Below, one piece after another: positions 1 to 44,340 of a stretch of DNA of 44,933 nucleotides. The DNA is from Chiloscyllium plagiosum (lineage: Eukaryota). The stretch spans positions 25,382,809 through 25,427,741 of the forward strand of contig NC_057719.1 of the NCBI RefSeq assembly GCF_004010195.1, given 5' to 3'. Both the position numbers and the translations under genes were made by a program. The stretch's first letter is position 1. The number at the start of each line of letters is the position of its first letter. The notes under the pieces were generated by a model. It saw only the letters and a program-made list of their open reading frames with translations, ran no database searches and was not told the DNA's origin.

Positions 1-531
1 ACTTCATTTCCTTTTTCTCAGGGGGTGATAGATGTGGTCTAACTTGATGTGTATGTTGATGGAATTCCGATTGGAATGCCATTCCTCTAGAAGTTCTCAT
101 GCATGTCTCTGTTTGGCTTGTCCTAGGATGGATGTTTTGTCCCATTTCAAGTGGTGTCCTTCCTTATCTGTATGTAAGGATACTAGTGAGACACCACTTT
201 GACTAGGACAACACATCCATCCTAGGACAAGCCAGAGACACGTATGAGAATTCCTAGAAGCATGACATTCCAACCAGAACTCTATCAACAAACACATTGA
301 GGTAGACCCCAACTACCACCCCTGAGAAAAAGAACAGGAAATGACATCACCATATGAAATGATGTCACACATGAAATGACATCACCAATCCAAAGAAAAC
401 CAAATATATAAACAGAAAGCAGGAATTATTAACAGTGCTTCGCCCGGAGGCCCACTGAAGATGTCGCCTAGTAGGGTGACGAAATATCTGGAAATGAACC
501 TTCCAGCTCAACAAGCAAACCTACATCCAGA
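1..531. mobile_element. Penelope-like element (Poseidon-like, family A): inverted pair of 3' fragments, left end outside the window
   Basis: 1-158 is an imperfect reverse complement of ~190-346. Both encode a GIY-YIG C-terminus (HH.DWDNTSILGQAKQRHAREFLEA.HS...INKHI). The plus copy runs on into a pLTR carrying a hammerhead core and ends ...ttccagctcaacaagcaaacctacatccaga. Confidence 0.85.
452..491 (+). ncRNA. Minimal hammerhead ribozyme motif (family A), decayed
   Basis: cca-CTGAAGA-t-gtcgcc(tagtag)ggtgac-GAAAtatc-tgg. The cca/tgg pair forms stem I. GAAACGTC has apparently decayed by CpG transitions to GAAATATC. Confidence 0.75.
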
Positions 532-852
532 TTAGTCCCTTTGAATTTCTTCAAGACTGTGTGGTATATTAAGCCCATTTCTTTCACTAACCATGTATAG
601 TCCACAGTCCTGCATTCTCCAGAATGTTAATCTAACATTGTGACCCTACTAGGTTGATTTTCGCAGGTAATATTCTCACAGCCTCTGTTGGATGGGACCA
701 TAGTCTTTCAAAGGATAACTCAGTGTCTGACTTAACCTTCTAGTCTTCAACTGTCTTCTGAATCAGTCATTTGGGCAACAAAGTAGCACTGTCAACTGTT
801 ATAGAAGCTTAATTTGTTCATTATAATGATAAATGCTGAACATGTAATTATC

Positions 853-935
853 TTGTGGTGCAGTGGTAGTGTCTGTCCCTTAAGGACAGAAGATCTGGGT
901 TGCAGTCACATCTTTTCCAGAGGTGCCTGAACAGG
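853..935 (+). mobile_element. Old tRNA-derived SINE head fragment
   Basis: A-box-like tggtgcagtgg and degenerate B-box-like gggttgcagtc at tRNA-like spacing. Confidence 0.45.
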
Positions 936-2796
936 TTATTTTGTTTTAATTATCGCCATTAGTTGGAGCTACAATGAAATAATTAGTAGTAATGTAATAA
1001 ATAAACAAATAGCTAAAATAAAAGATAATAATGCTTGATTCAGTGAAGGATAGTTGGAACTAGGCAGCTCTTACAAATAATTATTAATAATTTAATAGTA
1101 ATGGTATAGAAAGTATAACTGACCCATCAGTCTATTGGGGAGAATGGAAAAAAATAGCCAGTACTGCCCCTGATTAAACCATGCAAACAGCTAAAAATGG
1201 TGGCAGCATAACCCACAATTTTAATCTATTCTAGTGAAACCACTTTAAAAGATTACAGAGCCATTCTATTTGTGGTGTCAATCATGGATTAAGAAACACT
1301 ATCATTCATTTCTTTAATAATTCAAAACTAGGTTCAGATTAGAATTTACTGATGTGTAAACTCAAAGCCAAGTTTGATTCTAAAATCATGAAATCATGAA
1401 ATGGGGGAAAATCAACCGCTGTATAATTTACAAACCCCTTTACAGAACAGCGAATTTTCTTTGGGAGGGGAGTTCTTTTAAAACCAAATCAATTTAGCTC
1501 TACTTTTAGTGAGGGTTATGTACAATCTATTGCTATTTGAAAAGTATCTAACTCAACAGGGACATAATTAAGTTGATGGCTAGTTTTTGGAGTTATTTCA
1601 CATGTGGTACTTTTTGCACAGTACACACAATGGATATAATGTCAACACATTGTAACAGGGCACAGTGTTGCACCCATTTATGACAACACTTAGTATTGCT
1701 TGTTGCTGGCGAATACTCTTGAGATTAAGGATACAATTGAGGTACTCCCTTGTGAGAGCCCAGGGCATTGACTACCTGCATTAACTGACTACAGCTGTTC
1801 CCTTGTGAAACAAATAACTTTCTTGCATGGTCAGGTGATCCATCACACACAAAAAAATGGCTTCAATAATAAACAAAAGCCTATATTATGAAAAACTGCA
1901 CGCACATAGAAATAAGGAATGATTAATATCAACAGCAAACAGGAAATGAAGGCAGATCAGCAAAGAGTTGCTGTTCCTACAAATATTTTCTCCTCATTCT
2001 TTACTGTCATTGTTCAAAAAAGATGTGCATGTAATTCTGATGATGCTTGCAATGCAAAAGGTACCATTTGCACTGTTGTCCTTGAGATATTTTACATCAG
2101 TCCAAATATCAATAAAAGCAATTATAATAATGTTGAGTTTCACTTTCCATTTTATGAAACAGTTTTGCATTTCTTGGTAACTGAAATACTTCTGCAGATT
2201 TAGTTTGATGTTGTTGCTAGGGCTTCTCAGATTTTCAGGCACACTGCAGCGAGGGAAGTAGTTGAGATTAAATTTGAGTGTTTTTAATTCATTATTTCTG
2301 TTTCTCAGGAGGTTTAAACATTCTGGCACCAGTGTCCCCTGGGAAGAGTACTGGATCCAGAAGCCAGAAGCAGCTCAGTATTACAGCTCTCCACTGTCAC
2401 TCGCAGCTCTTTGTGGCTTAATACCACACTCATACTTCGCACTGAATGAGAAAGATAAATGCTGCTACTCAAACCACATGAGTGGAGAAAATATGTCGCA
2501 ATGAAGCTTTACACCCAATAGTGCTAAAGATTTGTAAGTGCTCTGAGGAGCAAAACAAAGATGAGAAATAGAGATGTGTTGAAACTGAATGGTTATAAGC
2601 ACCATAAATTTTCTGAATATAATGTAAGTACGAATTTAGATATCGGCTGACTGTTGAATGACCCCTCAGGTTAAATCTGTTTCCTGATTAGCTATAGTCT
2701 TTTTCTTTAAAAATGCTGTTGGACCACAAGCTATTGGCATTGAATAACATTGGTAAGTTGATGCACAACACAGGATTTATAATCTACCTCTTGGGA

Positions 2797-3072
2797 GTGA
2801 CTGTGTGGAGTTTACACATCCTCCTTGTGTCTGTGTGGGTTTCCTCCGGTACTCTGGTTTCCTCCCACAATCCAAAGATATGAAGGTCAGGTGCATTAGC
2901 CATGCTAAATTGCCCATAGTGTTCAGGGATTTGCAGGTTAGGTGCTTTAGTCAGGGGTAAATATAGGATAATAAGGTAGGGGAATGGGTCTGGGTGGGCT
3001 ACTCTTCAGAGAGTTGGTGTGGACTTGTTGGGTCAAAATACCTGTTTCCATACTGTAGGGATTCTATGATTC
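2797..3072 (+). mobile_element. HE1-type V-SINE, 5'-truncated
   Basis: V-domain tgtgtggagttt...gggtttcctccggtactctggtttcctcccaca, then a CR1/HER1-like tail ...cctgtttccatactgtagggattctatgattc. Confidence 0.85.
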
Positions 3073-3384
3073 ATGAGTTTCCTCCTTCCACTTCATGTAA
3101 CAACATCAATATACTCCAATTCATTTTTCTCTCACGTATTTATCTAACTTCACATTAAATGCATCTATGCGATCAGGGATAATGGAAAACAGGTAAATTC
3201 AGAAACCCAGGTCAATGCTCTAGGGGAAAAGGGCACTATGCTGGTGGGCTTTAAATTCATTTGCTATACCTGGATCTGTAAATCTGGCTCAGTAATGGTA
3301 ACCATGGTAACTGCAAACTATCATTGTTGTAGAAACCTAGCTGGTTCATGAATGCTGACATGAGGCTGCAACTCCAGTGGTTGA

Positions 3385-3605
3385 TTCTGGATCAATGGTG
3401 CTGGAAGAGCACAACAATTCAGGCAGCATCGAGGAGCTTCAGCAAAATCGATGTTTCGGGCAAAAGCCCTTCATCAGGATGAAGGGCTTTTGCCCGAAAC
3501 GTCGATTTTGCTGAAGCTCCTCGATGCTGCCTGAATTGCTGTGCTCTTCCAGCACCATTGATCCAGAATCTGGTTTCCAGCATCTGCAGTCATTGTTTTT
3601 ACCCT
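3385..3605. mobile_element. Short fold-back PLE-terminus element (family C) with 14-bp TSD
   Basis: 91-bp inverted arms 3385-3475 / 3478-3568 (2 mismatches, 2-nt spacer) and a 37-nt tail 3569-3605. TSD actccagtggttga at 3371-3384 and 3606-3619. Confidence 0.9.
3450..3477 (-). ncRNA. Minimal hammerhead core (family C)
   Basis: Minus strand reads CTGATGA-a-gggc(tttt)gccc-GAAAC-ATC. The mirror arm has GAAACGTC but lacks the CT of CTGATGA. Confidence 0.75.
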
Positions 3606-4744
3606 ACTCCAGTGGTTGAGTCTTACCTGTCCTCTGAAATGGCCTAGCAATTAAACTCACACAATTCAAGGGAAGTTAGGGACACACAGTAAAAATTGAC
3701 ATTTCCATTGATGCACTTATTCCATTAAAGAGATGAGAAAACTGCATGGCATTAAAGTCAGAGAGTCATACAGCACATAACAGCCCCTACGGCCCAACTC
3801 GTCCATGTCAACCAGATTTCCTAAAGTGAACTAGTCCCATCGGGCACATATGTCTTTAAACTTTTTCTACCCATGTGCCAGTCCAAATGTCTTTTAACTG
3901 TAATTTTATCCACTTCTACCACTTCCTCTGGCAGCTTGTTCTGCATATGCATCATCCTGTGTGTGTAAAAGTTGCCCCTCAGCTCCCTTTTAAATCTTTC
4001 CCCTCTCACCATAAACCTATGCCCACTAGTTTTGGAGTCCCCTACCCTGGGGAAAAGACCTTGACAAATAACTTTATCTATGCCCTTCATGATTTTAGTA
4101 ACACTTATAAGGTCACCCCTAAGCTTCCCCTGCTCCATGGAAAAAAAGTCCCAGTCAATCCAGTTTCTCCTTATGACTCAAACCTTCCAGTCTCTGTAAC
4201 ATCCTTCTAAATCATTTTTGAAGCCTTTCCAGTTTAAAAATATCCTTCCTATAACAGGGTGACCAGAATTGTATGCAATTCTCCAAATGTGGCCTTATCA
4301 AAGTCTTGTACAGTTGTAACATGACATCCCAACTCCTGTACCCAATGCTCTGGCCAATGAAGGTAAGCATGCCAAATGCCTTCTTAGCTATCCTGTCTAC
4401 CAATGGCGCCACTTTCAAGGAACTTTGCATCCGCACCCTAGGTCTCTCATTGAGTATAGTTCGACTACACTCCTCAGGGCCTTACCATTAACTGTGTAAA
4501 TCCTGCCCTGCTTTGTCTTTTCAAAATGCAACACCTCACATTTATCTGAATTAAACTCCATTTGCCATTCCCTAGCCCTTGGTTCAGTTGATCATGATGC
4601 CATTGTATTTTTAGATAACCATCTACATTGTCCACTATACCACCAATTTTGGTCATGATTTGGAGATGCCGGTGTTGGAGTGGGGTGCACAAAGTTAAAA
4701 ATCGCACAACATCAGGCTATGTCCAACAGGTTTAATTAGAAGCA

Positions 4745-4779
4745 CACTAGCTTTCGGAGTGTCACTCCTTCATCAGGTG
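4745..4779 (-). ncRNA. Minimal hammerhead ribozyme motif (family B), core intact
   Basis: Minus strand reads cac-CTGATGA-a-ggagt(gac)actcc-GAAAGCTA-gtg. The mirror copy at 4820-4854 has a mutated core (CTGATTA). Confidence 0.8.
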
Positions 4780-4904
4780 GTAGTGGAGGGTAGTGTGTTA
4801 GGATTGAGCCCTCCACTACCACCTGATTAAGGAGCGACGCTCTGAAAGCTAGTGTGCTTCCAATTAAACCTGTTGGACTATAGCCTGGTGTTGTGTGATT
4901 TTTA

Positions 4905-5013
4905 GAAGAAAATGAGGACTGCAGATGCTGGAGATCAGAGCTGAAAAAGCGCAGCAGGTGAGGCAGCATCCAAGGAGCAGGAGAATCGACATTTCGGGCA
5001 TGAGTCCTTCTTC
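4905..5013 (-). mobile_element. Short family C element nested in the family B element, 14-bp TSD
   Basis: TSD ttgtgtgattttta at 4891-4904 and 5014-5027. Minus strand starts gaagaaggactcatgcccgaaatgtcg (clipped core) and ends in the family C tail. Confidence 0.88.
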
Positions 5014-5500
5014 TTGTGTGATTTTTAACCAATTTTGGTGTCATTTGTAAACTTACTAACTGTGCCTTTTATCTTCTCATCCAAATCCAAATACTAAATT
5101 CCAATATTCTAACCATTCTACTTTTGATTGCATTTATTTGTGACTATCTTGTGTTTATGGCCTTAGGTTCAGTTCTTTCTTGAAAGTGGAAACATCTGCT
5201 TTATGTCACCCAATAAAACGCTATTGTAATCTTACAATTCTCTCTCAGGTCATCCATTAGTCTCTTCCTTTTTAGAGAAAAGAGTCTTAGATCCATAATC
5301 CTTATTAATAGAAGTGATCTCTCAATTCTGGTATCCCTCTTGCAAATGTTTTAGACTTGTATCATTGTTCCTAGACCCTATGTATGATGAAACTGTGCCT
5401 AGTATTTTAAATGTGGTCTAATAAAGGTTTGATATAAGGTTTTTCAACTGTTAACTTCCAGAAATGAATTTTGCACTCTGGCCTTGCTAACCTGTCCCAC

Positions 5501-5612
5501 GAGATTAGGTTAATTACAGTGTGGAAACAGGCCCTTTGGCCCAACAAGTCCACACCGACCTGCCGAAGCGCAACCCACCCAGACCCACTCCCCTACATTT
5601 ACTCCTTCATCT
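5501..5612 (-). mobile_element. HE1-type SINE 3' fragment
   Basis: Reverse complement of the 2960-3070 tail (gtggaaacaggccctttggcccaacaagtccacacc). Confidence 0.8.
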
Positions 5613-8600
5613 CAGTAATTAGACTAGTTTTATTGATTTGTACATTGCACCTCTATTTTCCATTTCTCCTCAATCCTACTTAAACTCTTATTTTTCAAGT
5701 GATGTCTCATTTTCTTACCAGAAGCCATCTTCTCATACTTGTCAGCATGGAGTGGGTTAGTGCAGGCAGACTTCATTTGTCTGATGGTGTGTGGGCTGGC
5801 TGCTCAGTGGGGAGTTTCTATTAGTTTCACCCCCCCCTGCTCTTTCAATAAAGCCCTGAAAACTCTCCATCCAATGTATCCATCCAGTTTTTCACCATCG
5901 GATGTGAACCCATCATCCTCAAGATAGTGTTCTCCAAATCATAGCAATCTAAATGAATACAAAATAGGAAATACATTCAGCTTTTCTCAGTTCATGGACC
6001 TAACATCTTGTGACTTGGAGTCAGAAGGCTTTGAATTGAAGTCTCACATCAGGACTGAAGCTTATAGCTTTGACTGCTAGACTTCAAACACATGTCTGTG
6101 AGATCTTTACTCCTATTATTTTCATCCGTGGGGTTTAGACTCTTGAAAGTTCTGTCTGGGTTGTTTCACTGTCCTGGCATTTTTTTTCCTACATATTAAA
6201 ACAAAATCATTTTCTATAATGACAGCACCATCTCCCATTGGATCTTTGACATGTTCTATCTTGGGTTGCAATGAATGACCTAGAATAGTGTCAACATTTC
6301 CAGTAATGTTCGAAAAAAGTTTGGAACAGGTTCTACGTTCAAATAATGTTTGAAACTTCTTCCTATACAGAGACAAAAAGACCTGGAGAATAGTTATGGA
6401 TGTGGGAGGAAATGTAGATCAATCTATTAAACCTTCCACAGAAATCTAAAATCTCAAGCCTCATGAATGATTTTAAAACATCGTTTCAGTAAGAAATACT
6501 CCATGATTTCAGTCCAGAATTTGTTTTTTTTAAAGATCATATTATGCTGCTGCTCTCTCATTAGGGACAAAGCTGATGGTGGTTAGTGTGTGGCTGCCAG
6601 AGTGTTGCGGTGGTACACCCTACCTGAATCTTGGCACTATGATAGTATTCTGGTCAGTAATGTGTGCTGCTGTTAGTGTAAAGGCCATATCATGTTCTTC
6701 CTCCTCCTCCTCCTACTCTGAAGAGGCACCACACTCTGCTTGGTGCTTTTTCAGAAGATTCACTCTTCGCTATGTCTTGCAGATTTCTTCTGCAGATGCC
6801 TTGAAAAAGCCTGAGACAAAGAAGTTTTACAGTTGTGGTTTCTTTGTCATTCTCTGTTAAATTGTAGCTACCAGCCCATTTGGCAGTACATCATCTACCA
6901 GCAAGTTACAAGTGTCTGCCATGACGTAATTGAAAGCCTGACCCTCTTGAGGTACTGTTGTTCATAAATAGCTAGGAAGCAGACCTTCTATCTGCACACC
7001 CTAGATTCTGAATGTTATCTCTTCCAAGCTGTACCTTTCTGTTCAGCTACTCTGTCTGTGAGGACCAGAAGGAAGAACCGTAAGATTTGGAATGACTGTA
7101 CTAGTTTGAACCCCAATTGTATACCTTAATATGGAACTCCAGGATGGGACCAGTACCATCATCTCCAAGTCTTTTTTGGCTTGGATTTTCAGGATTTTCC
7201 TAAATTACTTTCTTCTTATTTTCTTCAACACAGCAACATCTATTATATGTGAAGTAATGAGTAAACCCGCAGCATCATTAATGTGTGGAAATGTCCTACA
7301 TAAAATTATCCAAAACCTCACCATGCTTTCGCTGTGAGTTCTAAAATATCTGGGAAATCAGTACGCACACAGATAGGTTGAAAACACTTGTTTTAAAAAA
7401 AGCTCCTAACAGCAATCAATAGAGCAGAATGAACAATTGATCTCTCTCCCACAGGGGTTTCTTACACACCATCTAACTTGCTGCAGTTAAATGTGTAAAT
7501 TAGTGGGTTGGAGCTGGCTTCTCAATGCAGGGACAACTACAATCCTCTTGAAGCCTTCATACCAACTGCTCCCAAACCCACTGGCTCTCAAAAGTTAAAA
7601 TTGCTCCAAGCAGGTGGAGAAGGAAAGAGCAGCAGATAGGGTTCTGAATCAGGAGGGGATGTCGGACAAAGATAGAGAATGTTTGAAGTCTCATTGCAGC
7701 CCCATTTAAAATACTTTACTGGAGGAAACGTCTTGCTCATTTTAAAGAAGCCCTTTTCTCTTCAAAACAAAATTAAGAGCAAACTTAATTTCTAATGTCA
7801 ACCTTTTTAAACATCAGCTGAGCCCCCAACTGCTATTTACCAACATGATCAATGCATCATGTGTACCATTTCTGTATGGGTCAATTTTAACAATCCTTCT
7901 ATTCCACCTATACATGTTCTGTAGTCATACATTTATTGCTGGATGCCAGTTTTCAGATCAGATTCTGACCCACAATGCTAATGCTATAGTGTAAGGTCCA
8001 TCTCATTTATCACTGTTAAATCAGTTTTGTAAGACTTTCTTTTAAGAACAAATTAGGACATTAATATTGTGTGCCAATTGCCCATCATGTAAATTGTTTC
8101 TGAGATATTTACTTTGTTTTGTTTACCAAACCTCATATTGCAAATTGGCTTATTTTAAATGCTCGGTGGAACAGTTTTTGTATTCATCCGACGTTTAATT
8201 AGCTATTTAGTTGCCATGAATTTGTGATTCTAATCAGGCGTCCTGTTTCTACATTGATAAGTATGAAAAATACAAAGGAAATGGAAAAATTTCCATATGC
8301 TCGAGAACTCACGTTCTTTCCTTCTGCGTCACCCCTGCAAATCAAACACCAGACCTTTATTAACAGGATGTTCACCTGGGAAACAGTTTATTAAACCTGA
8401 TTTGCTGTTTACTTTATTAACTTACATTTAATGAATTTGCAGAGTATTGGTGACCTTATCCAATCTGACATTCAATATGCAATAGAGCACTTATAGTTTG
8501 AAAGGGCTTAATATTATATCAATAAGGTACCAACTATCCAGATCCTTTGCTTTCTGATTAGGATATACATCTGGTAATTGTTGCAACAAATTACTCATTT

Positions 8601-8697
8601 CCATGCTAAACCTGAAACAGGCATTGAGACAACAATTAGATGTCTTCATCTCTGCACAGTTACACAAGTAATACAATCACAGCCACTTGTATTTATA

Positions 8698-9029
8698 TAG
8701 AGTCATAGAAATCTATAGCATGGAAACAGACCCTTCGACCAACTTGCCCATGCTGTTTAGTTTTTACAATTAAACTAGTCTGCATTTGGTCCATAACCCA
8801 CTATAGCTGTCCTGTCCATGTACCTGTCCAAACGTTTCTTAATTGATGAAATTGTACTTGCTTCCACCAGTACCTCTGGCAGCCTGTCCCAGATACTTAC
8901 CATTCTCTGTGTGAAAGAATTTCCCCTCTGTACCCTTTGGTATCTCTCCCATCTCACCTTAAACCTATGCCCTAAGGTTTTAGATTGATATACCATGGGG
9001 AAAAGCAGTTGGCTAGCTACCTTGTCTAT
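8698..9029 (-). mobile_element. CR1/HER1-like LINE 3' end
   Basis: ORF 8775-9041 (GHRFKVR..RGNSFTQRMVSIWDRLPE..GYGPNA) and the typical tail ..gtctgtttccatgctatagatttctatgactcta. Confidence 0.88.
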
Positions 9030-9113
9030 GTTAAAAATCATCCAACACCAGGTTATAGTCCAACAGCTTTATTTGGAAGCACTAGCTTTCGAAGTGCTGC
9101 TCCTTCATCAAGT
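9030..9113 (-). mobile_element. Family B PLE terminus fragment with degenerate hammerhead
   Basis: gttaaaaatc..caggttatagtccaacag..cactagctttcgaagtgctgctccttcatcaagtg matches the reverse complement of 29001-29087. Confidence 0.85.
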
Positions 9114-9605
9114 GGAAAGATGTTGCGAAACTTGAAAGGGTTCAGAAAAGATTTGCAAGGATGTTGCCAGGGTTGGAGGATTTGAGCTACAGGGAGAGGT
9201 TAAATAGGCTAGGGCTGTTTTCGCTGGAGTGTCGGAGACTGAGGGGTGACCTTATAGAGATTTATAATATCATGAGGGGCATGGATAGAATAAATAGACA
9301 AAGTATTTTCCCTGGGGTGGAGGAGTCCAGAACTAGAGAGCATAAGTTTAGGGTGAGAAGGGAAAGATATAAAAGAGACCTAAGGGGCAACTTTTTCACC
9401 CAGAGGGTGGTACATGTATGGAATGAGCTCCAAGAGGAAGTGGTGGTGGCTAGTATAATTGCAACATTTAAAAGGCATCTGGATGGGTATATGAATAGGA
9501 AGGTTCTGGAGGGATATGGGCCAGGTGCTGGCAGGTGGGACTAGATTGGATTGCGATATCTGGTCGGCATGGACAGGTTGGACCGAAGGGTCTGTTTCCG
9601 TGTTG
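9114..9605 (+). mobile_element. CR1/HER1-like LINE 3' end, relatively young
   Basis: ORF 9161-9544 (MLPGLEDLSYRERLNRLGLFSLECRRLRGDLIE..LRGNFFTQRVV) plus tail. Confidence 0.92.
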
Positions 9606-16415: not shown

Positions 16416-16877
16416 CCGTAGTGCGGCATTCCCATATATCTACATCCCATGTCCTTCCAGATGGAAGGTGGTGTCTGAGGATCTTTGGTGAATTTCTGTA
16501 GTACACCCTGTAGATAGTACACACTTCTGCTACTGAGCATTGGTGGTGAAGGGAAGTGATGCAGTACCAATCAAGTGGGCTGCTTTCTGCTTGATGGTGT
16601 CAAGTTTCTCGAGTTTTGTTGGGGCTGCACCCATCCAGGCAAGTTGAGTATTTTGTCACATTCCAGACTTGTGCCTTGTAGATGATGGATAGGCTTTGGG
16701 GAGTCAGGAGATGAGTTGCTTGCTGCAGTATTTCTAGCCCCTGGCCAGGTCTTGCAGCCATTGAGTTTCTGGTCAATGGTAACTGCCAAAATGTTGATAG
16801 CGAGAGATTTAATGATGATAACACCATTGAATATCAAGGAGCAGAGATTAGATTGACTCTTATTGGTGACCGTCATT

Positions 16878-17111
16878 GTCGAGAGTGTGGTGCTGCAAAA
16901 GCACAGCAGGTCAGGCAGCATCTGAGGAGCAGGAGAATTGACATTTTGGGCAAATGTCCTTCATCAGGAATGAGGCTTCATCAGGAGTTACCAGGAGCAG
17001 GAGAGTTGACTGACAAAGGGCTCCTGCTCCTTGGATGTTGCCTCACCTGTTATGCATTTCCAACACTATACTCTCAACTCTGATCTCCAGCATCTGCCTT
17101 CATCACTTTCT
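16878..17111. mobile_element. Older fold-back family C element with scrambled centre, ~20-bp TSD
   Basis: Inverted arms ~16878-16938 / ~17022-17080 plus tail. TSD tcttattggtgaccgtcatt (16858-16877) vs tcttcttggtgatggtcatt (17112-17131). Confidence 0.82.
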
Positions 17112-17220: not shown

Positions 17221-17333
17221 GAAAGTGAGGACTGCAGATCCTGAAGAAGGGCTTATGCCCGAAACGTTGATTCTCCTGCTCCTTTGATGCTGCCTGACCT
17301 GCTGCGCTTTTCCAGCAACACATTTATCAGCTC
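17221..17333. mobile_element. Short family C element: 19-nt inverted tail stub fused to a plus-strand copy starting at the ribozyme core, 16-bp TSD
   Basis: TSD tgaatttga(a/t)catgga at 17205-17220 and 17334-17349. gaaagtgaggactgcagat is the reverse complement of the family C tail end. Confidence 0.87.
17241..17268 (+). ncRNA. Minimal hammerhead core (family C)
   Basis: CTGAAGA-a-gggc(ttat)gccc-GAAACGTT, with an NUH triplet GUU. Confidence 0.75.
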
Positions 17334-22898: not shown

Positions 22899-23228
22899 TG
22901 AGCTGACAAGTGGATGATTGCATGAGAAATGGGCCATGGCAGGCTGAAAAAAATACAATTTGCCAAACAAGTGGGAAAATACTGCCAAATTGAGGTGGAG
23001 ACCGGGGAGATTATATCTCAAAGCTTGTGTCCAAGCTCAGTGTTCTTGTTTCCACTTCAGTAGTGCTGGCTGTCAGCTAGCCCTTCACTCCATGGCTGTT
23101 TATAAATGATGGTGGGAAGAGAAGTTCCAGCTACCCATCTGATGGTTTTATCTTTATCCATACCACCCACACCCTTTGAAGACTGCCAGCCAGTATGTAA
23201 GTTAGCTCGCTGAGCTGGAAGGTTTGTT

Positions 23229-23272
23229 TTCAGACATTTCATCACCAATGACTAGGTAATATCATCAGTGAG
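23229..23272 (-). ncRNA. Minimal hammerhead motif (family A)
   Basis: Minus strand reads ctca-CTGATGA-t-attacc(tagtcatt)ggtgat-GAAATGTC-tgaa. Confidence 0.7.
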
Positions 23273-23403
23273 AGTTTCCGTGAACCGCTGGTAGTATGTC
23301 CCACTTCGCTATTTATAGGTCTTCGTGTCTTAAGGTGGGTGATGTCATTTCAGATTCTTTTTTTCAAGGGAAGGTAGATGAGACCTAAATTGATGTGTTT
23401 ATT

Positions 23404-23632
23404 CAAAGTTTGTGAGAAGATTTGTAGCTCGGGTGCTCGTTGCTGTGGTTCTGTTCGCCGAGCTGGAAGTTTTTGTTGCAAACGTTTCGTCCCCTGTCTA
23501 GGTGACATCCGGCCGGAGGAAACACCGCAGAAGCCCTTCACAGGAGGCTCCCAAGCACGGAGGATGTCACCTAGATAGGGGACGAAACGTTTGCAACAAA
23601 AACTTCCAGCTCGGCGAACAGAACCACAGCAG
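23404..23632. mobile_element. Young fold-back family A-related PLE terminus nested in the older PLE, 13-bp TSD
   Basis: TSD tgatgtgtttatt at 23391-23403 and 23633-23645. 37-nt tail 23404-23440. 70-bp arms 23441-23510 / 23562-23631 (1 mismatch). Core variant CGGAGGA-t-gtcacct(agat)aggggac-GAAACGTT. Confidence 0.9.
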
Positions 23633-24034
23633 TGATGTGTTTATTGATGGAATTCTGGTTAGAAAGCCATACCTCTAAGAATTCTTGTGCGGCTTTGTTT
23701 CACCTGTTCTAGGTTGTGTGTGTGTTGTCCCAGTCAAAGCAGTGTCCTTCTCTGTCTGTATGTATGGAAACTAGTGATAGTGGGTCATGTATCCTGGTGG
23801 CAAGTTTCCTGTTTGTTTGCCCAATGTAGTGTTTTTACAGTCTTTGCATGGTTTCTTGTAAATGACGTTAGTTTTGTTGGTAATATCTAACAGATCCTTT
23901 AGGTTCATTAGTCGCTGTTTAAGTGTGTTGGTAGGTTTGTGAGAAAATGAACCATAAATTACATCACACACCTTAACAAACCAAGACCTATAAACAGAGA
24001 GGCAGGACATACAACCAGCTCTTCACCAGAGACT

Positions 24035-24077
24035 CTCACTGATGATGTTACCTCGTCATGGTGATGAAACATCTGAG
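24035..24077 (+). ncRNA. Minimal hammerhead motif (family A)
   Basis: ctca-CTGATGA-t-gttacc(tcgtcat)ggtgat-GAAACATC-tgag, with stem I ctca/tgag. Confidence 0.75.
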
Positions 24078-24399
24078 AACACACCTTTCAGCTCAGCGAG
24101 CTGACTTTACATACATATCATCAACGTGAGCTACAAATCTTCTCAAAAATTGCTAATTGCCAGTTGATGGTAAACCCTGGACTAACCACCCTTATTGAGC
24201 AAGATATTTGAAGGTGAAGGCCTGGTCTTGATTATTCTATTCTGTCATCAGTTCCCTCTCACGTGTTTTTATGTCATTTACTACCAACTCACAACTACCA
24301 CAGCCCACTGCCAACACAATGCACGTGCAAAAGTCACTTTAATACATTGCATAAATAGGGCATAGTTTGTTCATGGTGACGTTGGCAGATGAAGTGCTG

Positions 24400-27550: not shown

Positions 27551-27662
27551 GGAAAGTTAATAAGAACCATTGATGGGAATAGGTTGTTTGGCCCATAAGG
27601 TTAAATAAAAGGTGAGCTGCAACAACCTGCACAGTGAAGAAAGAAGGAACTTTCATCCTTAA

Positions 27663-28348
27663 CGTGCCACAGCAAGGAACCGTAATGACCTCCTCAGGAG
27701 ACAGACACGTGCTGCAACTGAGAGGGTACCCTTCGTTGTTCAGTAGTTCTCAGGAGCTGAAAAATTACGCCATATTCTTCGTGACCTGCAACACATTATC
27801 AATGAGGATGAGCACCTCACCCAGACCTACCCACACCTGCACTACTTGCCTTTAAACAACCGCCAAACCTCAAACAGATCATTGTTCGTAGCAAACTGCC
27901 CGGCTCTCAGGACAACTCCATACAACCCTGTCACGGTGGACACTGCAAGACGTGTCATATTGTGGACTTAGATACCACTATTACACGTGGGAACACCTCC
28001 CACCTTGTACATGGCAGGTGCTCATATGACTCAGCCAACGTTGTCTAGCTTATACGTTGCAGGCAAGGATGCCCGGAGGCATGGTACATTGGGGAAACCG
28101 AGCAAAGGCTACGACAATGGATGAATGGGCACTGCACAACAATCAACAGACAGGAGGGTTCCCTACCAGTTGGGGAACACTTCAGTGGTCCAGGACATTC
28201 AGCCTCGGACCTTCGGGTGACCATCCTCCTAGGTGGACTTCGGGACAGGCAGCAGAAGAAAGTGGCCGAGCAGAGGCTGATAGCTAAGTTCGGTACCCAT
28301 AGGGAGGGCCTCAACTGGGACCTTGGGTTCATGTCACATTACAGGTGA
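27663..28348 (+). pseudogene. PLE ORF C-terminus: RT-EN linker, Cys motif and GIY-YIG endonuclease (stops/frameshift)
   Basis: RVPFVVQ*..LLAFKQPPNLKQIIVRSKL..PCHGGHCKTCH..SANVV*LIRCRQGCPEAWYIGETEQRLRQWMNGH..PVGEHFSGPGHS..EQRLIAKFGTHREGLN. Confidence 0.9.
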
Positions 28349-28360
28349 TCACCATTGCAC

Positions 28361-28602
28361 TACACACACACACAGATATTCCTACACACACATACTCTCA
28401 CATACACATGGACACAGGTACACACAGACATGCACACAGACACCCACACACACCCTTATAGACACACACACTCCCACACATGCACCCCCTCACAGACTTA
28501 AGACACTCTGCACTCACTACACACACACACACTTTCTCACACACACGACCCCCACCCCAGACAGACACACACACACAGACAGACAAAGACCCACATTCAC
28601 AC
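28361..28602. repeat. Degenerate (CA)n-rich tract inside the PLE 3' region
   Basis: Interrupted acacac runs immediately after the PLE stop codon. Confidence 0.9.
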
Positions 28603-29000
28603 GTATATTTTGTGGGGTGAATTTGTACTGGCAGAGTTACATTGTACTTTGCTCAAAAATTGCATGCATTCATGTAGAACTCTGAGCTCAAAAACTGTAT
28701 GAATTTATGTAAAACTGTTATCTCACTTTTTAGATTAGAATCAATCTAAACATCATGGCATAGAACAGGGGCCAACACCTTCAACATATTGTCTAGCTAT
28801 CACCATTGTTAATAGCTAACCCGAGAATGCAACTTTAAAAAAAAGGTTTTGTGATTTACACATGAAAGAAGTGAAACTATCACTGTATTCTAACAGATGA
28901 AAGGCTTAACAGGCAATCAATTTTTCAATGTATAATTTCAGTTACATCACACTGTAAATTTTTGCTATAATTTCTGTGTTACGATCGAGCCCTCCACTAT

Positions 29001-29035
29001 CACCTGATGAAGGAGCGTCGCTCCGAAAGCTAGTG
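29001..29035 (+). ncRNA. Minimal hammerhead ribozyme motif (family B), best-preserved copy
   Basis: cac-CTGATGA-a-ggagc(gtc)gctcc-GAAAGCTA-gtg: full core, 5-bp stem II, AGCT palindrome in place of stem III, predicted cleavage after A29032. Confidence 0.85.
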
Positions 29036-29995
29036 TGCTTCCAATTAAACCTGTTGGACTATAACCTGGTGTTGTGTGATTTTTAACTTCATCCTTAAAG
29101 TTCTGCTTCTGTTGTAAGGATACACGGCACAGCAAATTTTATTTTACTTAAGTGCAATGGCTGAGATCAATATTATGTCTCATAAAACTCATTTATGAGC
29201 AAAAGAGGTTTAGTCATTCTTGTGTATAAAATTGTTTGTATTTTAAGTAAGTTATCATAGCCTTTCTAGTCTAAATGTTGTTCATTTAAATACATTTCTG
29301 CATTTCCTTTTGAAAGAACTATTAAAATTGCCAGGTATTGCAAGAATAGTTACCAGGTTATATTCTGAAATCTAAACATTTCTGAAAGTGTACTTTGGAA
29401 TAACTTCCAACAGAAAGTGCTAACATTTAACCTTTTATTTTTTCCATGTTGTACCATACAAAGAAGCTAACTTCCTTGTTCAAAATGTTATGGATCATGC
29501 AGAACAGGAACAGGCCATTCAGCCCAACCTGTCCATGGTGACATTTGCACCTAATCAAGCCTTCTCCCATCCTTTTCTTCTTCTCTTCTTTCTCAGACAT
29601 TTATCCAGCCTTCCCATAATGAATTTGTACTCGTCACCTAACTACTTCATGTCGTAATGAATTCAACATTCTCACTCCTCTCTGGTGAAAGAGTCTTCTT
29701 TTGATTTCTCTATACAGATTTTTGGTGGCTGCGTATTGATAACCTATCAGCATTATACCATCTCACAAGTGGAAGCACCTTTATTCCTACTTTGATGAAA
29801 ATCTTTTATAATCTTAAAAATATTTGCTAGGGCACTCCAATAGTTCTGTAAATTGTCAAGTTGTAACAAAATGAAAACTCTCCATGTATTCACTGAGACT
29901 CCCTGCTTTTTGGACAATGTTAGAACATGACAAATTATCCTCAGTGTATGTTGGTGTTGATGTGGGTACATTGACAGGAAGATGCATCTAATGGC

Positions 29996-30113
29996 CATGA
30001 TTTGGAGATGCCAGTGTTGGACTGGGGAGTACAAAGTTAAAAATCACGTAACACCATGTTATAGTCCAACAGGTTTATTTGGAAGCACTGCACCTTCATC
30101 AGGTGGTTGTGTG
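29996..30113 (-). mobile_element. Short family B element with tail, internally deleted core
   Basis: Same 40-nt tail start (catgatttggagatgcc) as 4654. Possible decayed 15-bp TSD gatgcatctaatggc / gatgcttccaactgc (11/15). Confidence 0.82.
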
Positions 30114-30654
30114 GATGCTTCCAACTGCAAACAAGTGAGCTATCGAATGATGATGATGAAGTAAGTGTATGTAACAAGGTATGAGGAATTTAATATTATC
30201 AAGTACAGAACTGGGGCATTTTCTGAATATGATATACCTTGTTATAACAGCATACTTATTTTGCAAAAGAAGTTCATTGGTTTAGCTGACGAGATGTGTG
30301 GTTTAAGTTTCAGATTGATCAACAATGAAGGTGCAAGTCCTGTTCTGATTGAGGGAGACTGCGGCTTCCTTTCCTGCTTGTCCCATGCTCAATGCAGAAT
30401 GAATCAATGCAACCTCTGACCAATAAAGGAAAATGTCGATGGACCCTCATGGACATTAGCTGATGTCTGCAAGGAAAATTCAATTATATTGTGACTAATC
30501 CTTTTAGTTTAACATTTGGCTAAAGCAACCAGCAACAAAGAGTGATCCATAGTGTTTGAGAAACTTAAGTTCCAAGTTAAAGACTGTGTGAATTTTAATG
30601 CTTTTGTCGCGCAAGGTTCTATCATTTGTGAACAGCATTTTAAACTAATGTGGC

Positions 30655-33515: not shown

Positions 33516-33697
33516 TTTTTAAAATATTTCTATCTCAGCAAGGACCGTGGACCTGAAATTTAAGGGGGCAGATATTGCAATCCTGATACTAAGATCACAA
33601 TTTAGGGCAGAATGTAGATCTTCCTGGTTTTCACACCATTTATCCTGTGAATAATAGTTAATTTGATTTGTAAGACTCATCAAAATCATTAATTGTG

Positions 33698-36638
33698 ATA
33701 GGCCAGGGAAGTATTTAGCGTACCTGACTAGGAGAAAGTGTGCTCCCCAATCCATTACTGTAATCAGAGACAGCGCCAGAGTCCTTACATACGATGCTAA
33801 AAAGATTAATGAGGCTTTTCGGAGCTTTTACTCTGAGTTGCAAAGACAGGAGGGCTAAAATGGAGACCTGTTTTAAGAACCTGGACCTCCCAGGGGTAAC
33901 CTTGGAACAGGCTTCTCTCCTTAATGCCCCTTGACAGTTCAGGAAATACAGGAGGTATTTAGGCAACTTCAGAGTGGGAAAGCACCTGGCCCTGATGGTC
34001 TTCCGGGTGAGTTTTATAAGGAGTTTATAGGCATTCTATCAGGGCCGATGTTGGAGATGTACAATCAATCCTATAGGCATGAATGCCTACCACCATCTTT
34101 GAGAGAAGCTAATATTTCCTTAATTCTTAAGAAGGGGAAAGTTCCTGAGGATTGTGCCTCATACAGGCCCATCCCTCTATTAAATTCAGATTTCAAGATT
34201 CTGTCCAAGATCCTAGCGCTGAGGTTGAAAAGGGTGTTGCCCCATATTATTAAAGAAGACCAGACAGGCTTTATACGGGGCCGTAGGTCCTCTAATAATA
34301 TTAGAAGGTTGCTGAGTTTAATCCAAGTTTGTCAGCAACAATCGATTCAGGGGTTGGTGATTTCCTTAGATGCAGAGAAAGCATTTGACTGGGTGGAATG
34401 GCCGTATCTTTTTTATGTCTTAGAACAGTTTGGGTTGGGTGGAGTCTTTGCTAGGTGGGTGGAGTCTTTGCTAGGTGGGTAGAGGTTTTATATCGCCACC
34501 CTCTGGCCGCGGTCATTACCAACAGGGTGAAGTCTGGGAATTTTACGATTGGTAGGGGTAGTCGGCAAGGCTGCCCCCTCTCACCGTTGTTGTTTACGTA
34601 GGTGATTGAGCCGCTGGCAAAGGCCATTCGTCAGAACAGCTACATAACCGCTCCGGAAGTGGGATCACGGGCACACAAGATTACACTGTATGCAGATGAT
34701 GTCCTTCTGTTTTTATCGACCCCGATGACCTCAGTACCCCATTTGATACAATGTATCAATTCATTTGGGGCTGTTTCAGGATATAAGATTAACTTTGCAA
34801 AATTGGAGGCTATGCCTTTGGGGAACCTTAAGGATGTGCCAGAAGTTGAAGGGGCTCTAAGTTCCCTTTTAAGTGGTCATGGGCAGGGTTCCAGTACCTA
34901 GGCATTTTTATTACCCCCAAGAATGATCGGTTATTTCGGACTAACTTTGCTCATTTGCTCGACAATATTAGGTGAGATCTCCAGAGATGGGAGGCTCTTC
35001 CAATTTCGTGGCTGGGCCAAATATCTCTCATTAAGATGAATGTTCTTCCTCATTTGCTTTGTCCATGCGTATGCTCCCTATAATGTTTTCCAGGTCAACG
35101 CTGCGGACGCTTGTGGGGTGGTTTGGTTCCTTTGTCTGGCATCGTGGGCGGCCCCTCATCAAACTTACTAAATTGCAGTTGCCTCAAGGAGGGGGAGGAG
35201 TTGATTTCCCAGACATCAGAAGGTATCAATTGAGTTCCCTGCTGTCCTTTGTCTGCGATTGGGTAGGTAATGATCCAAACTCAATATGGCTGGATAGTGA
35301 GGCCTCCCAAGCAAAGTGCCCTCTTATTAACCTATTGTTCATGGATAAGACGAGGACAGTTATGGAACACTGCTGGAACCCCATTGTCATTAATACAGTC
35401 AAGGCATGGAGGACGATGCATCAGAGTGAGGGTTGCTTAATCAAGACTTCGCCACTTACACCTATAGTTGGCATGCCAGGGTTCCGACCAGGGATGATGG
35501 ACTCAGGGTTCAAACTATGGGCAGCGAGAGGAGTTTCTAGTTTGGGAGACTTGTTTGAGGGGGAGGTTATGATGTCTTTTGAGTAACTGAGCTGCAAATT
35601 CTGGATTAGTGGTGCTGGAAGAGCACAGCAATTCAGGCAGCATCTCGGATTTTGCCTGTCCTCGGATGCTGCCTGAATTGCTGTGCTCTTCCAGCACCAC
35701 TAATCCAGAATCTGGTTTCCAGCATCTGCAGTCATTGTTTTTACCTAACTGAGCTGCAAATACAGGTTACCTAGCAGAGATCTTTTCCGGTTTTTTCAGG
35801 TTAAGGATTTCATCCAGAAGAAGACTGTGCTTCTCACTACGCCCTATAAGCCCGATACAGAGAGGTTGTTGCTACATTTCTCAAGCACCCTTTCGGTTAG
35901 TGCCCTCTATCACCTGCTGGGTGGCAGGGCCTGGCAGTATATTAACCGGTTATGTGAGGTCTGGGAGCAGGAGCTAGGAGTGGAGATCTCTTCTGAAACA
36001 TGGGAGAACATATGGGAGAATGCTTGAAAGATCTCAATTTGTAATAGGACATGCGCTACACAGTTAAAAGTTCTGCACAGGGCTCATCTGGCACCGGACC
36101 GTCTGGTGAAGTTTAAAGAAGGGCATCTTCAGTGTGCCCCAAATGTAAAATAAGTGTAGGTACTCTTACCCATTGCTTCTGGACATGCCACAGGCTCAGT
36201 GTTTATTGGAGCGCCGTGGCGGGAGAGATAGGAAGTGTATTGAGGACTGAAGTCAAAGTAGACCTGATATCTCTCCTCTTAGCTCTACCAAATTTACCAT
36301 CTTTAGACGGGCCTGGGAAGAAACTATTTAATATTCTTGCATACAGCGCACGTTATTATGGGTATGTATATAGTGCTCCCGTTCCTCTGTTTGGGAGCTT
36401 TGCGCCGAGCATAGCTGTTCTGTGTTCTGTGTTTTTTTTTGCTTTTCTTTCTTTTTTGGTGTTCCTTTGCACAGTGTTAGGGTTTGTTTTGTATCAGACG
36501 GTAGGTTAATAGTTAGGAGACAGTAGTTGTATTGTTTTTGTGTTTGTTTTGTTATTATACTGATATTTGTTATTGAGTGTATTTTTCAATAATTTTATAT
36601 GTAAAGTTAAAAAAATTGCTAATAAATTTTACAAAAAT
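33698..36638 (+). mobile_element. L1-clade LINE, 5'-truncated ORF2 pseudogene with A-rich tail and 16-bp TSD
   Basis: TSD aaaatcattaattgtg at 33682-33697 and 36639-36654 (tc/aaaa L1-type site). GKAPGPDGLPGEFYK..ISLDAEKAFD, GSRQGCPLSPLLF, TLYADDV, GYKINFAK, and CCHC motif CPKC..TLTHCFWTC. Confidence 0.95.
35600..35745. mobile_element. Fold-back family C element lacking the ribozyme core, inserted in L1 ORF2, 16-bp TSD
   Basis: Perfect 46-bp arms 35599-35644 / 35665-35710 and a 35-nt tail. TSD taactgagctgcaaat at 35584-35599 and 35746-35761. Confidence 0.92.
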
Positions 36639-36779
36639 AAAATCATTAATTGTGGCTAATGGAACAGTTTCTTTTTCAGCCTGTTAGTCAAAATTGTATT
36701 TGAAATTGATGTTTTTCTGGCTCTATATATATTCTCTGCCTCCTTCCCCTTTGGATAATCTCTACCTTGTAAGAATTTC

Positions 36780-42753: not shown

Positions 42754-42876
42754 ATGAAGGGCTTATGCCCAAAACTTCAACTCTCCTGCTCCTTTGGATG
42801 CTGCCTGACCTGCTGTGTGTTTCCAGTACCATACTTTTTGACTCTGATTCTCTAGCATCTGCAGCCCTCTCTTGTT
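42754..42876 (+). mobile_element. Short family C element starting inside the ribozyme core, ~14-bp TSD
   Basis: atgaagggcttatgcccaaaac..ctcctgctcc..gatgctgcctgacctgctg..agcatctgcag. TSD ccttct(ttg/gtc)aggtg at 42740-42753 and 42877-42890 (12/14). Confidence 0.82.
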
Positions 42877-43388
42877 CCTTCTGTCAGGTGTGTGAACAAA
42901 ATCTAAATGAGCCTACTTGGCCACTTGCCAAGTGTCAACGGATAGGTCCTGCCAACCCAAACCTAACTCGGCAAATTACCTGACAACAGGTTTGGAGTGG
43001 GAAAGTTGACATGATGGTTAGCACTAATATTTTCAAACTAAATCAGCCTTGATTCCCACTCTAGATGAAACCTGATAGTTTGATGCAGAGATTCAGTTAC
43101 ACCATTAGGTATAGGAGCAGATGGAGGCCACTCAGCTTATTGCATCTGCTCTGCTGTTCATGGCTAATCTGATCATCCTCAAGTCTAGAGGTCAAGCTCC
43201 TAAGATCAGAGGATATATCAGAATGAGGGGTTACACATTTAAACAGAGATGAAGAGACATTTCTTCAGCGAACCTATGGAATTCTTAATGCAGAGAGATG
43301 TTGAGGAACGTTAAGTATATTCAAAAGACAGATTTTTAATCAGTAAGGGAATTAAACATTATGGAGAAAAAGCAGGAACGTGGAGTTA

Positions 43389-44340
43389 TAGAGTGATAGT
43401 CATACAGCAGGGAAACAGACATTTCAGTCCAACATGTCCATGGAGACCAAACATCCCAATCTGACCTAGTCCCATTTGCCTGCATTTGGCCCATATCACT
43501 CTAAACACTTTCTATATGCATTTTAAATGTTGTAATTGTACCTGTCTCCAACACGTCTACTAGGAGCTTTTTCCATACATGCCCCACTGTCTGCATGAAA
43601 AAGCTACCCCTCAGGTCTCTTTAAATCTTTCTTCTCTAACCTTAAAAATCTATTCTCTCTCGTTTTGGACTACTCAACCCTACGAAAAAGACCTTGGCTA
43701 TTCACCCTATCCACACCTCTCATGATTTTAGAAACCTCTATAAGGGCATTACTCAGCCTTCAACACTCTAGGGAACAGAGCCCCAGTCTGTTCAGCCTCT
43801 CCCTATAACTCAAACCCTCCAACCCCAGCATCATCCATGCAAATCTTTTCAGCTCCATCTCAAGTTTAACATCCATCGTATGGAAGGGCAACCAGAATTG
43901 TATGCAGTATTCTAAAAATGGCCTCACCAATGTCCTGTACAGCCTCAACATGATGCCGCAACTCCTTTACTCATTGCTCTAATCAATGAAGGCAAGTGTG
44001 CCAAATGCCTTCTTCACCACCCTGTCTACCTGCAACTCCACTTAGGTCAAGCTTAGAGTGGTGCTGGAAAAGCATAGCAGGTCAGGCACCTTCTGAGAGG
44101 AGAGTAATCGACGTTTCGGGCACGAGCCCTTCATCGGCCTTTCATCCTGATGAAGGGCTCCTGCCTGAAACGTCGATTTTCCTGCTCCTCGGATGTTGCC
44201 TGACCTGCTGTGCTTTTCCAGCACCACTGTAATCTTGAGTCTGATCTCCAGCATCTGCAGTCCTCACTTTCATCTACTATCAAGGAACTATGCACCTCCA
44301 GTCTGAAAAACAACACTCTACCACCACGCTCTGTCTCCTA
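43389..44340 (-). mobile_element. CR1/HER1-like LINE 3' part, interrupted at 44044-44271
   Basis: ORF 43760-43951 (LYRTLVRPFLEYCIQFW..GLSYRERLNRLGL) and CR1 tail at 43389-43500. Confidence 0.88.
44044..44271. mobile_element. Fold-back family C element with hammerhead cores on both arms
   Basis: Diverged arms ~44044-44135 / ~44149-44242. Plus-strand CTGATGA-a-gggc(tcct)gcct-GAAACGTC at 44147-44174. Tail ..ccagcatctgcagtcctcactttc. TSD not clear. Confidence 0.82.

What the first reader, a model, noticed from the sequence alone, without database searches (positions are those of the whole stretch)
452..44174. About 18 minimal hammerhead cores from three unrelated PLE families in 45 kb, mostly in tiny self-contained insertions
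Seen: CUGANGA-stemII-GAAA-NUH cores (intact, clipped or decayed) near 455, 3450, 3478, 4745, 4820, 4988, 9082, 16940, 17241, 23229, 23480, 23558, 24039, 29004, 30095, 42754, 44110 and 44147. Most lie in 80-380 bp units with their own 10-20 bp TSDs, so each was inserted independently. Known: Penelope-like elements carry minimal type I hammerheads in their pLTRs. Inference: at roughly one core per 2.5 kb, these short ribozyme-plus-tail units may form a distinct non-autonomous, non-tRNA, SINE- or retrozyme-like class in elasmobranchs. Family C (7 insertions) has no coding parent in this window.
Basis: partly seen in the sequence, partly recalled or inferred. Interest (0 to 1): 0.75.

Follow-up and report, generated by a model that had tools for sequence, protein, structure and literature searches.

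The report
Penelope stubs ending at RNA start
The hammerhead-bearing mini-inserts are real, but they are cut-short end copies of three protein-coding Penelope-type jumping-gene families rather than a new element class; in two families they stop sharply just before the ribozyme, likely because copying ran off the capped start of the element's RNA, which would speak to how these elements rebuild their terminal repeats.

Summary
All 18 listed cores map to pLTR pieces of three Penelope-like (PLE) families, but they form 13 insertions, not 18, and only 6 of the window's 21 pieces pass a strict core test. The density is typical of the genome (367 pieces in 1.16 Mb sampled). Family C has a coding parent elsewhere (Neptune-type RT plus GIY-YIG); A and B do too, and B and C RTs are 37% identical. 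Short and long copies interleave on trees (24 label changes vs 24.7 shuffled; 14 vs 13.9), so a SINE- or retrozyme-like lineage is not supported. Truncation is not smooth, though. In B and C, 5' ends pile up about fivefold within 20 nt at the ribozyme's front edge, about 32 nt after a TATA-like box, not at the predicted cut site, with a position-specific extra G (60% vs 13-23% one base away). The tail runs on into the ORF start. Best reading (inferred): reverse transcription starts in the tail, runs off the capped RNA start and integrates before strand transfer. Family A shows no pile-up, and no RNA data confirm the start site. The scan noted this pattern before on other DNA.

The parts
1..530 (.). 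Family A (Penelope/Poseidon-type) 3' end: GIY-YIG C-terminal remnant, TATA-like box, hammerhead core 455-488 (+); an inverted arm runs off the window's left edge, so no TSD is visible
   Evidence: RT+EN relatives
3385..3605 (.). Family C two-armed hairpin stub (tailless arm on -, tailed arm on +); TSD 3371-3388 / 3606-3623
4654..5027 (.). Family B two-armed stub (intact core 4748-4776 on -, decayed core near 4823 on +); 12-bp TSD 4642-4653 / 5028-5039; carries a nested family C copy
4905..5013 (-). Family C stub nested in the family B unit, clipped core; 14-bp TSD 4891-4904 / 5014-5027
9030..9115 (-). Family B tailless stub between two opposed LINE fragments; no TSD recovered
16870..17111 (.). 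Family C two-armed stub (decayed core near 16940 on -, core-less tailed arm on +); 12-bp TSD with 1 mismatch
17221..17333 (+). Family C stub, core 17241-17268, preceded by a 20-nt inverted tail piece; 16-bp TSD with 1 mismatch
23190..24160 (.). Family A two-armed insertion with GIY-YIG remnant (23709-24022, -); cores at 23268 (-) and 24039 (+); TSD not recovered
23404..23632 (.). Second family A subfamily, two-armed stub nested in the previous one, both cores clipped; 13-bp TSD
27663..29087 (+). Family B 1.4-kb 5'-truncated Neptune-type copy: Zn-finger linker, GIY-YIG (28049-28348), microsatellite-rich 3' region, TATA-like box, intact core 29004-29032; 11-bp TSD 27652-27662 / 29088-29098
29992..30115 (-). 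Family B tailed stub, core with stem II partly deleted; TSD weak
35600..35745 (.).
42754..42876 (+). Family C tailed stub, clipped and decayed core; borderline 14-bp TSD
44047..44280 (.). Family C two-armed stub inside a LINE; intact core 44147-44174 (+), clipped core near 44110 (-); TSD degenerate

Best explanation
The units are 5'-truncated end copies of three ORF-bearing Penelope-like retroelement families, and in the two Neptune-type families most likely are strong-stop-like products: reverse transcription would start in the tail, 85-130 nt into the RNA, run off its capped 5' end just before the hammerhead, and be joined to DNA before transfer to the rest of the element. Shown here: coding parents, interleaving of short and long copies, the 5'-end pile-up, two 3'-end classes, one tailed and one tailless arm in most inverted pairs, the tail continuing into the ORF start, and a position-specific G excess. 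Inferred: that the pile-up is the transcription start (TATA-like box about 32 nt upstream, initiator-like YR step); that the G copies the cap; that both target strands prime on the two start sites; that the stubs are promoterless dead ends; that the hammerhead does not cut the template that is copied. Ribozyme activity is untested; the core has the dimer-type palindromic stem III.
For: Parents: C; B; A. Interleaving: C 24 changes vs shuffled mean 24.7 (221 of 500 shuffles as low); B 14 vs 13.9 (320 of 500). Pile-up at -15..+4 from core C3: C 3.4%/nt vs 0.6-0.8 elsewhere; B 3.0 vs 0.5-0.6. Exact genome counts for one young C subfamily: of 21,120 copies matching from A(-4), 15,396 keep the element's C at -5, 3,444 have G and 2,280 have A or T. 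G is thus 60% of non-template bases, against 13 of the first 100 listed one base downstream. For B: 61 of the first 100 listed are G before A(-8), against 23 of 100 one base downstream. All 12 G-starting B loci fetched lose element homology at that G. In host-joined C copies alone the G share is about 0.48-0.51 (95% 0.32-0.66) against a background of 0.29. A TATA-like word is conserved at -40 (B) and about -35 (C) across diverged subfamilies. 102 of 114 inverted pairs have exactly one tailed arm. The tail continues to an ATG about 160 nt after C3; 4 of 12 such loci, plus L233, join ORF-start sequence directly to a pLTR beginning at -5..-1. This fits internal, two-site, two-strand initiation on uncleaved RNA shown in vitro for the Anolis PLE (PMC11167929) and cap-derived G at full-length L1 ends (PMC4859970).
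Against: Family A has a TATA-like box but no pile-up (1 of 22 copies end at -15..+4; n=28). The pile-up is spread over about 20 nt rather than one base, and 6,146 C copies end one base later, at -3. The G is mostly also present in the joined partner (target or opposite arm), so it is seen as microhomology, not as a clean extra base; 27 of 40 G loci join an inverted arm whose purine-rich composition inflates G. The trees use only 85-88 columns with few supported forks, so small short-only clades are not excluded. No intact full-length copy from start site to 3' pLTR was found among the 12 of 40 listed loci fetched. The start site is predicted from sequence only.
Confidence: 0.66

Rival explanations
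1. The stubs are PLE truncations, but the pile-up comes from RT stalling at the front edge of the folded hammerhead or at the pyrimidine-rich tract upstream, not from an RNA end.
For: The pile-up coincides with the 5' strand of stem I and is about 20 nt wide. The upstream C sequence is a C/U-rich tract. PLE copies are known to be heavily 5'-truncated (PMC8557442, passages).
Against: It does not predict a G excess at one position in two families with different upstream sequence, nor the fixed distance of about 32 nt from a TATA-like word. Family A has a stronger predicted stem I yet no pile-up.
Confidence: 0.17
2. One reading: the short ribozyme-plus-tail units are a self-propagating non-autonomous SINE- or retrozyme-like class.
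For: A defined length and sharp 5' edge; very high copy number; own TSDs. Non-autonomous PLE derivatives exist (MRC1, PMC8557442; non-LTR retrozymes, 10.64898/2026.07.22.740005). A few supported 3-4-member short-only clades appear in the C tree.
Against: Short and long labels are no more clustered than shuffles. Coding parents exist. There is no B box, the upstream TATA-like word is lost, and there are no head-to-tail arrays. The two-armed junctions differ in nearly every copy, so the hairpins are not amplified as units.
Confidence: 0.05
3. The boundary is a splice acceptor: a spliced RNA joins a short upstream exon, ending in G, to the hammerhead, as the D. virilis Penelope intron ends at the 5' end of helix I.
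For: PMC4209133 reports that intron end in D. virilis. Exons often end in G (established knowledge). A pyrimidine tract lies upstream in C.
Against: The element has C, not AG, at the boundary in both C and B. The letters before the G are host DNA or the inverted arm, not a shared exon.
Confidence: 0.06
4. Hammerhead self-cleavage makes the RNA 5' end that defines the stubs.
For: Intact dimer-type cores. A slight excess of C ends near the predicted cut (13 of 197, 1.3%/nt vs 0.8). One window arm (35648) starts at +28.
Against: Most stubs keep the whole core upstream of the cut. B shows 1 of 74 ends at the cut. In vitro, unprocessed RNA was the main substrate for the Anolis PLE (PMC11167929).
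Confidence: 0.03

Closest known systems
Minimal type I hammerheads in pLTRs of metazoan PLEs (Cervera & De la Pena 2014, PMC4209133)
   Same: CUGANGA core, one unpaired base before stem II, no real stem III but a palindrome at 15.2/16.2, short stem I; mostly single motifs ascribed to truncated PLEs, some pairs on opposite strands 100-700 bp apart.
   Different: Sharks are not named in the sections read. Numbers there were about 4,000-9,000 per genome, against an extrapolated 230,000 or so strict cores here (different descriptors, not directly comparable). No mapping of 5' ends in the sections read.
Complex insertions of EN+ PLEs: 5' truncation, adjacent inverted copy, 30-40-bp tail at one end (Craig et al. 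2021, PMC8557442); Neptune (B, C) and Penelope/Poseidon (A) types
   Same: Two-armed layout, tail on one arm only (102 of 114 pairs), C-terminal GIY-YIG, linker Zn finger in B and C.
   Different: A sharp pile-up of 5' ends just before the ribozyme with a G excess is not in the passages read.
Poseidon element of Anolis in vitro (Frangieh et al. 2024, PMC11167929)
   Same: Two internal RT start sites bounding the tail, extension of both strands, uncleaved RNA as template, tail lying in the 5' part of the RNA.
   Different: There the ORF starts inside the hammerhead; in family C the first ATG is about 160 nt downstream. Here the pile-up is in Neptune-type families and absent from the Poseidon-type one.
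Non-LTR retrozymes of animals (PMC7229834; bioRxiv 10.64898/2026.07.22.740005)
   Same: Non-coding, type I hammerhead, PLE-pLTR-related, larger TSDs.
   Different: Retrozymes are head-to-tail repeats of 150-450-bp units with two or more ribozymes in one orientation, giving circular RNA. These units are single or head-to-head, so they cannot release a unit-length RNA by cleavage.
Retroviral/LTR minus-strand strong-stop DNA (recalled) and cap-derived G of full-length L1 (PMC4859970)
   Same: Works like: priming near the RNA 5' end, run-off at the cap, need for a strand transfer.
   Different: Target-primed, with no tRNA primer or integrase; the failed intermediate itself is integrated. The analogy is inferred.

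Membership tests
EN+ Penelope-like elements | RT plus C-terminal GIY-YIG in one ORF in the parent | tested here: met
   C: 684-aa frame L116 (RVT_1 E 2.7e-6 and GIY-YIG E 3e-4, both just below the curated cut-offs). B: RT and EN frames. A: YVDD RT and EN frames.
EN+ Penelope-like elements | pLTR with minimal hammerhead at the 3' end | tested here: met
EN+ Penelope-like elements | Inverted truncated copy and 30-40-bp tail at one end | tested here: met
   228 of 367 pieces lie in reciprocal inverted pairs; 102 of 114 pairs have one tail
Neptune clade (B, C) vs Penelope/Poseidon (A) | Zn-finger-like linker between RT and EN; placement on an RT tree | tested here: inconclusive
   Cys-rich linker seen in B and C and not in A; no RT tree against named reference elements was built
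Self-cleaving hammerhead ribozyme | Conserved core, stem II, NUH cleavage triplet, palindromic stem III for dimers | tested here: met
   6 of 21 window pieces and 76 of 367 sampled pieces; monomer folds are no more stable than shuffles
Self-cleaving hammerhead ribozyme | Cleavage activity | not testable with these tools
   needs an in vitro assay
Non-LTR retrozyme | Head-to-tail repeats with two or more complete ribozymes | tested here: not met
   33 same-strand neighbour pairs within 1 kb among 367 pieces, at irregular spacing and with no arrays; not each pair was inspected
Non-LTR retrozyme | Abundant small circular or linear RNA | not testable with these tools
   no suitable library was available
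SINE / non-autonomous lineage | Own clades or diagnostic positions separate from the autonomous partner | tested here: not met
   (98 of 252 C pieces and 44 of 86 B pieces used; low resolution)
SINE / non-autonomous lineage | Internal Pol III promoter | tested here: not met
   no B box in 9 short window units; a loose A-box-like word in 2 B units. An internal Pol II element downstream of the start was not tested.

The most novel reading that the evidence does not exclude
Neptune-type PLEs replicate through a retrovirus-like strong-stop step. RT primed in the tail copies about 90-130 nt to the cap, adds a C opposite the cap, then jumps to the 3' pLTR, which would explain how pLTRs are regenerated. 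This genome holds hundreds of thousands of integrated failed intermediates that record the start site, the cap and mis-aimed jumps at base resolution.
Probability: 0.45. Interest if true: 0.68.

Novelty: new member of a known kind. Interest (0 to 1): 0.42.

Why it matters
As a claim of a new SINE- or retrozyme-like class it fails: these are ends of known-type PLEs. What remains useful is mechanistic. How PLEs finish a copy and regenerate their pseudo-LTR is open ('no obvious mechanism', PMC2377424), and the role of their hammerhead is unclear. The stub ends give a base-resolved, testable prediction: a capped start at A(-4) in C and A(-8) in B, uncleaved template, and run-off followed by transfer. 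The genome also appears to carry on the order of a million pLTR arms (extrapolated), which matters for shark repeat annotation and for ribozyme searches.

Tried and rejected
Rfam scan: no hammerhead family at E<=10, only hairpin miRNA look-alikes on the palindromes. Pfam on window EN fragments: nothing relevant. RNA: no RNA holder listed. Of two raw single-cell polyA runs, X22 laid 0 reads. X21 laid reads in both orientations with loose ends at the element boundaries and no place where many molecules begin or end. This library type cannot show starts, cleavage or circles, so it is not used as evidence either way. A fuzzy-regex scan timed out and was replaced by BLAST. The window value of -122 for the 17238 piece is an artefact of matching its own locus and is disregarded. 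Monomer folding z-scores were not significant. The automatic TSD finder missed boundaries for 6 insertions; one was then resolved by hand. Lunse et al. (PMC5785218) is not held, so dimer cleavage is cited through PMC4209133 and PMC6765202. Literature searches that found no description of the start-site pile-up or of shark PLE hammerheads: (open-access library only). The supplements of the bioRxiv preprint (its one chondrichthyan's retrozyme families) were not seen and may bear on the retrozyme comparison.
Full report
OBSERVATION. The window is G000:C10:25382809-25427741 of a 3.56-Gb genome. That it is a shark is inferred from recalled repeat resemblance and from an earlier scan note, not from a call. 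BLAST with window copies finds 22 pLTR pieces, 21 after a score filter, covering all 18 listed coordinates. A strict core pattern occurs 7 times against 0.38 expected, and 0 of 100 shuffles reach 7. Only 6 of 21 pieces keep core, stem II and the palindromic stem III. The pieces form 14 insertions; the 18 cores belong to 13 of them, since five pairs are two arms of one insertion. TSDs of 11-18 bp were recovered for 8 of 14. Rfam has no matching hammerhead model at E<=10.

HOW COMMON. I took 120 stretches of 10 kb at round coordinates on the 31 largest contigs (1,200,000 bases, 44,238 N). They hold 367 pieces (C 252, B 86, A 29), 76 with a strict core, or one per 3.15 kb. The window is therefore ordinary for this genome. 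Extrapolation gives about 1.1 million arms and 230,000 strict cores; small contigs were not sampled.

PARENTS. Family C extends upstream into a GIY-YIG and RT frame. A 121-aa piece of it gives 57,138 first-look candidates, 150 scored, at 84-100% identity. L116 holds a 684-aa frame with RT, Cys-rich linker and EN running up to the hammerhead. B has such frames in the window and elsewhere. A has RT and EN frames without the linker. B and C RTs are 37% identical. So B and C look Neptune-type and A Penelope/Poseidon-type, by the linker criterion in PMC8557442; no reference tree was built. The remark that family C has no coding parent holds only for the window.

ARE SHORT COPIES THEIR OWN LINEAGE? 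Trees of the shared 85-88 nt used one arm per insertion and dropped censored and intermediate-length pieces (98 of 252 C, 44 of 86 B). They need 24 short/long changes against 24.7 for shuffled labels (C) and 14 against 13.9 (B); identical or near-identical short and long copies share supported clades. Resolution is low, and a few 3-4-member short-only clades exist. No B box was found in 9 short window units. 33 same-strand neighbour pairs within 1 kb show irregular spacing and no arrays. The SINE/retrozyme reading is not supported.

BUT TRUNCATION IS NOT SMOOTH. 5' ends were mapped against long copies, with a random-flank control whose spurious extension was mostly under 10 nt. 103 of 151 C and 39 of 66 B copies that reach +4 (numbering from core C3) end by -15. 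That is 3.4 and 3.0% per nt, against 0.5-0.8 elsewhere. A shows none (1 of 22). At the predicted cut site there are 13 of 197 C ends (1.3%/nt) and 1 of 74 B ends. Long copies carry a TATA-like word at -40 in B and about -35 in diverged C subfamilies, about 32 nt before an A in a pyrimidine-purine step: A(-8) in B and A(-4) in C, the latter in an initiator-like context (the consensus motifs are recalled).

EXTRA G. Exact genome counts for one young C subfamily from A(-4): C (template) 15,396, G 3,444, A or T 2,280. G is 60% of non-template bases; one base downstream it is 13 of the first 100 of 6,146 listed (counted by eye). For one B subfamily: 61 of the first 100 of 462 are G before A(-8), against 23 of the first 100 of 338 one base on, with 2,352 template (counted by eye; Fisher tests). 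A confound is that 27 of 40 G loci join an inverted arm rich in purines, and the G is usually also the next base of the partner. Restricting to host-joined copies (11-13 of 39-40 G loci, 14 of 30 A/T loci) gives a G share of 0.48-0.51 (95% 0.32-0.66) against 0.29 background, P about 0.001-0.009. This is what a cDNA ending in an extra C and annealing by microhomology would give. Untemplated G at full-length L1 ends is ascribed to the cap (PMC4859970).

TAIL AND JUMPS. 3' ends fall in two classes, near +75-95 and +115-129. 228 of 367 pieces lie in reciprocal inverted pairs, and 102 of 114 pairs have exactly one tailed arm. Two of 131 tails continue into shared sequence. A search gave 1,950 candidates with 40 listed, and 12 were fetched. 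The tail runs into an ATG about 160 nt after C3, so the tail lies in the 5' part of the RNA. In 4 of the 12 (L313-L316), and in L233, ORF-start sequence is joined directly to a pLTR that begins at -5..-1. One joins at -12, five join further upstream, one joins the RT interior and one joins host DNA. No intact full-length copy was among them.

MECHANISM. Shown in vitro for the Anolis PLE (PMC11167929): both strands are cut and extended, RT starts at two internal sites bounding the tail, and uncleaved RNA is the main template. Inferred here: the RNA starts at A(-4) or A(-8), RT started in the tail reaches the cap after about 90-130 nt and must jump to continue. Failed jumps are joined to the target or to the cDNA primed on the other strand, giving single stubs and hairpins; mis-aimed jumps give the ORF-start chimeras. 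The stubs lack the TATA-like word and would be dead ends. Confidence that they are PLE truncation products is about 0.92; confidence in the capped run-off mechanism is about 0.66. Against it: family A lacks the pile-up, the peak is about 20 nt wide, and no RNA data confirm the start.

LITERATURE SEEN. PMC4209133: parts 1-2 of 4 (abstract, results, discussion, part of methods). PMC11167929: parts 1-2 of 4 (main text, part of methods). 10.64898/2026.07.22.740005: parts 1-3 of 5 (main text; supplements not seen). PMC8557442, PMC6765202, PMC7229834, PMC2377424, PMC4859970, PMC6155905: passages from term searches. PMC5785218: nothing (not held). The minimal hammerheads, truncation, inverted arm and tail are in print; the start-site pile-up with G was not found in the searches. 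Earlier scan notes (25 findings, at least 7 genomes) report the same reading; my reading was recorded before that look-up, and the notes are not independent evidence.

VERDICT. The feature is real, a new member of a known kind, and not a new non-autonomous class. Interest is 0.42, carried by the testable strong-stop reading.

Noticed in passing
window 22399-22907: Seven tandem 52-nt copies (72-100% alike) inside a SINE-like repeat that recurs at 2760-3060 and 44340-44730; looks like local amplification of part of that SINE.
   Followed up: no
window 4654-5027 and 23190-24160: Two PLE stubs inserted into the pLTR or 3' region of another PLE copy (C into B, one A subfamily into another), which may reflect an endonuclease preference for pLTR-like AT-rich sites.
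   Followed up: partly
window 33900-36400: Decayed L1-like RT ORF remnant (frames at 33925-34482, 34602-34901, 35035-35586, 36117-36509) interrupted by the core-less family C hairpin at 35600-35745.
   Followed up: no
window 6534-7350: Stretch with gene-like reading frames and an acidic/serine run on the minus strand, possibly a transposase-derived or host exon fragment; not identified.
   Followed up: no
window 9030-9120: A family B stub sits at the junction of two oppositely oriented LINE fragments with no TSD; possibly a template-switch chimera or a later rearrangement.
   Followed up: no
L308-L319: Family C copies that keep the ORF start nearly all have large internal jumps to the 3' pLTR; 13 listed hits are 100% identical over 117 nt, which suggests recent activity.
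   Followed up: partly
random sample, family A: The Poseidon-type family lacks the 5'-end pile-up despite a TATA-like box at -48 to -53; a possible clade difference in mechanism (n=28).
   Followed up: partly
window 28350-28610: CA-rich microsatellite-like tract inside the 3' untranslated part of the family B element.
   Followed up: no
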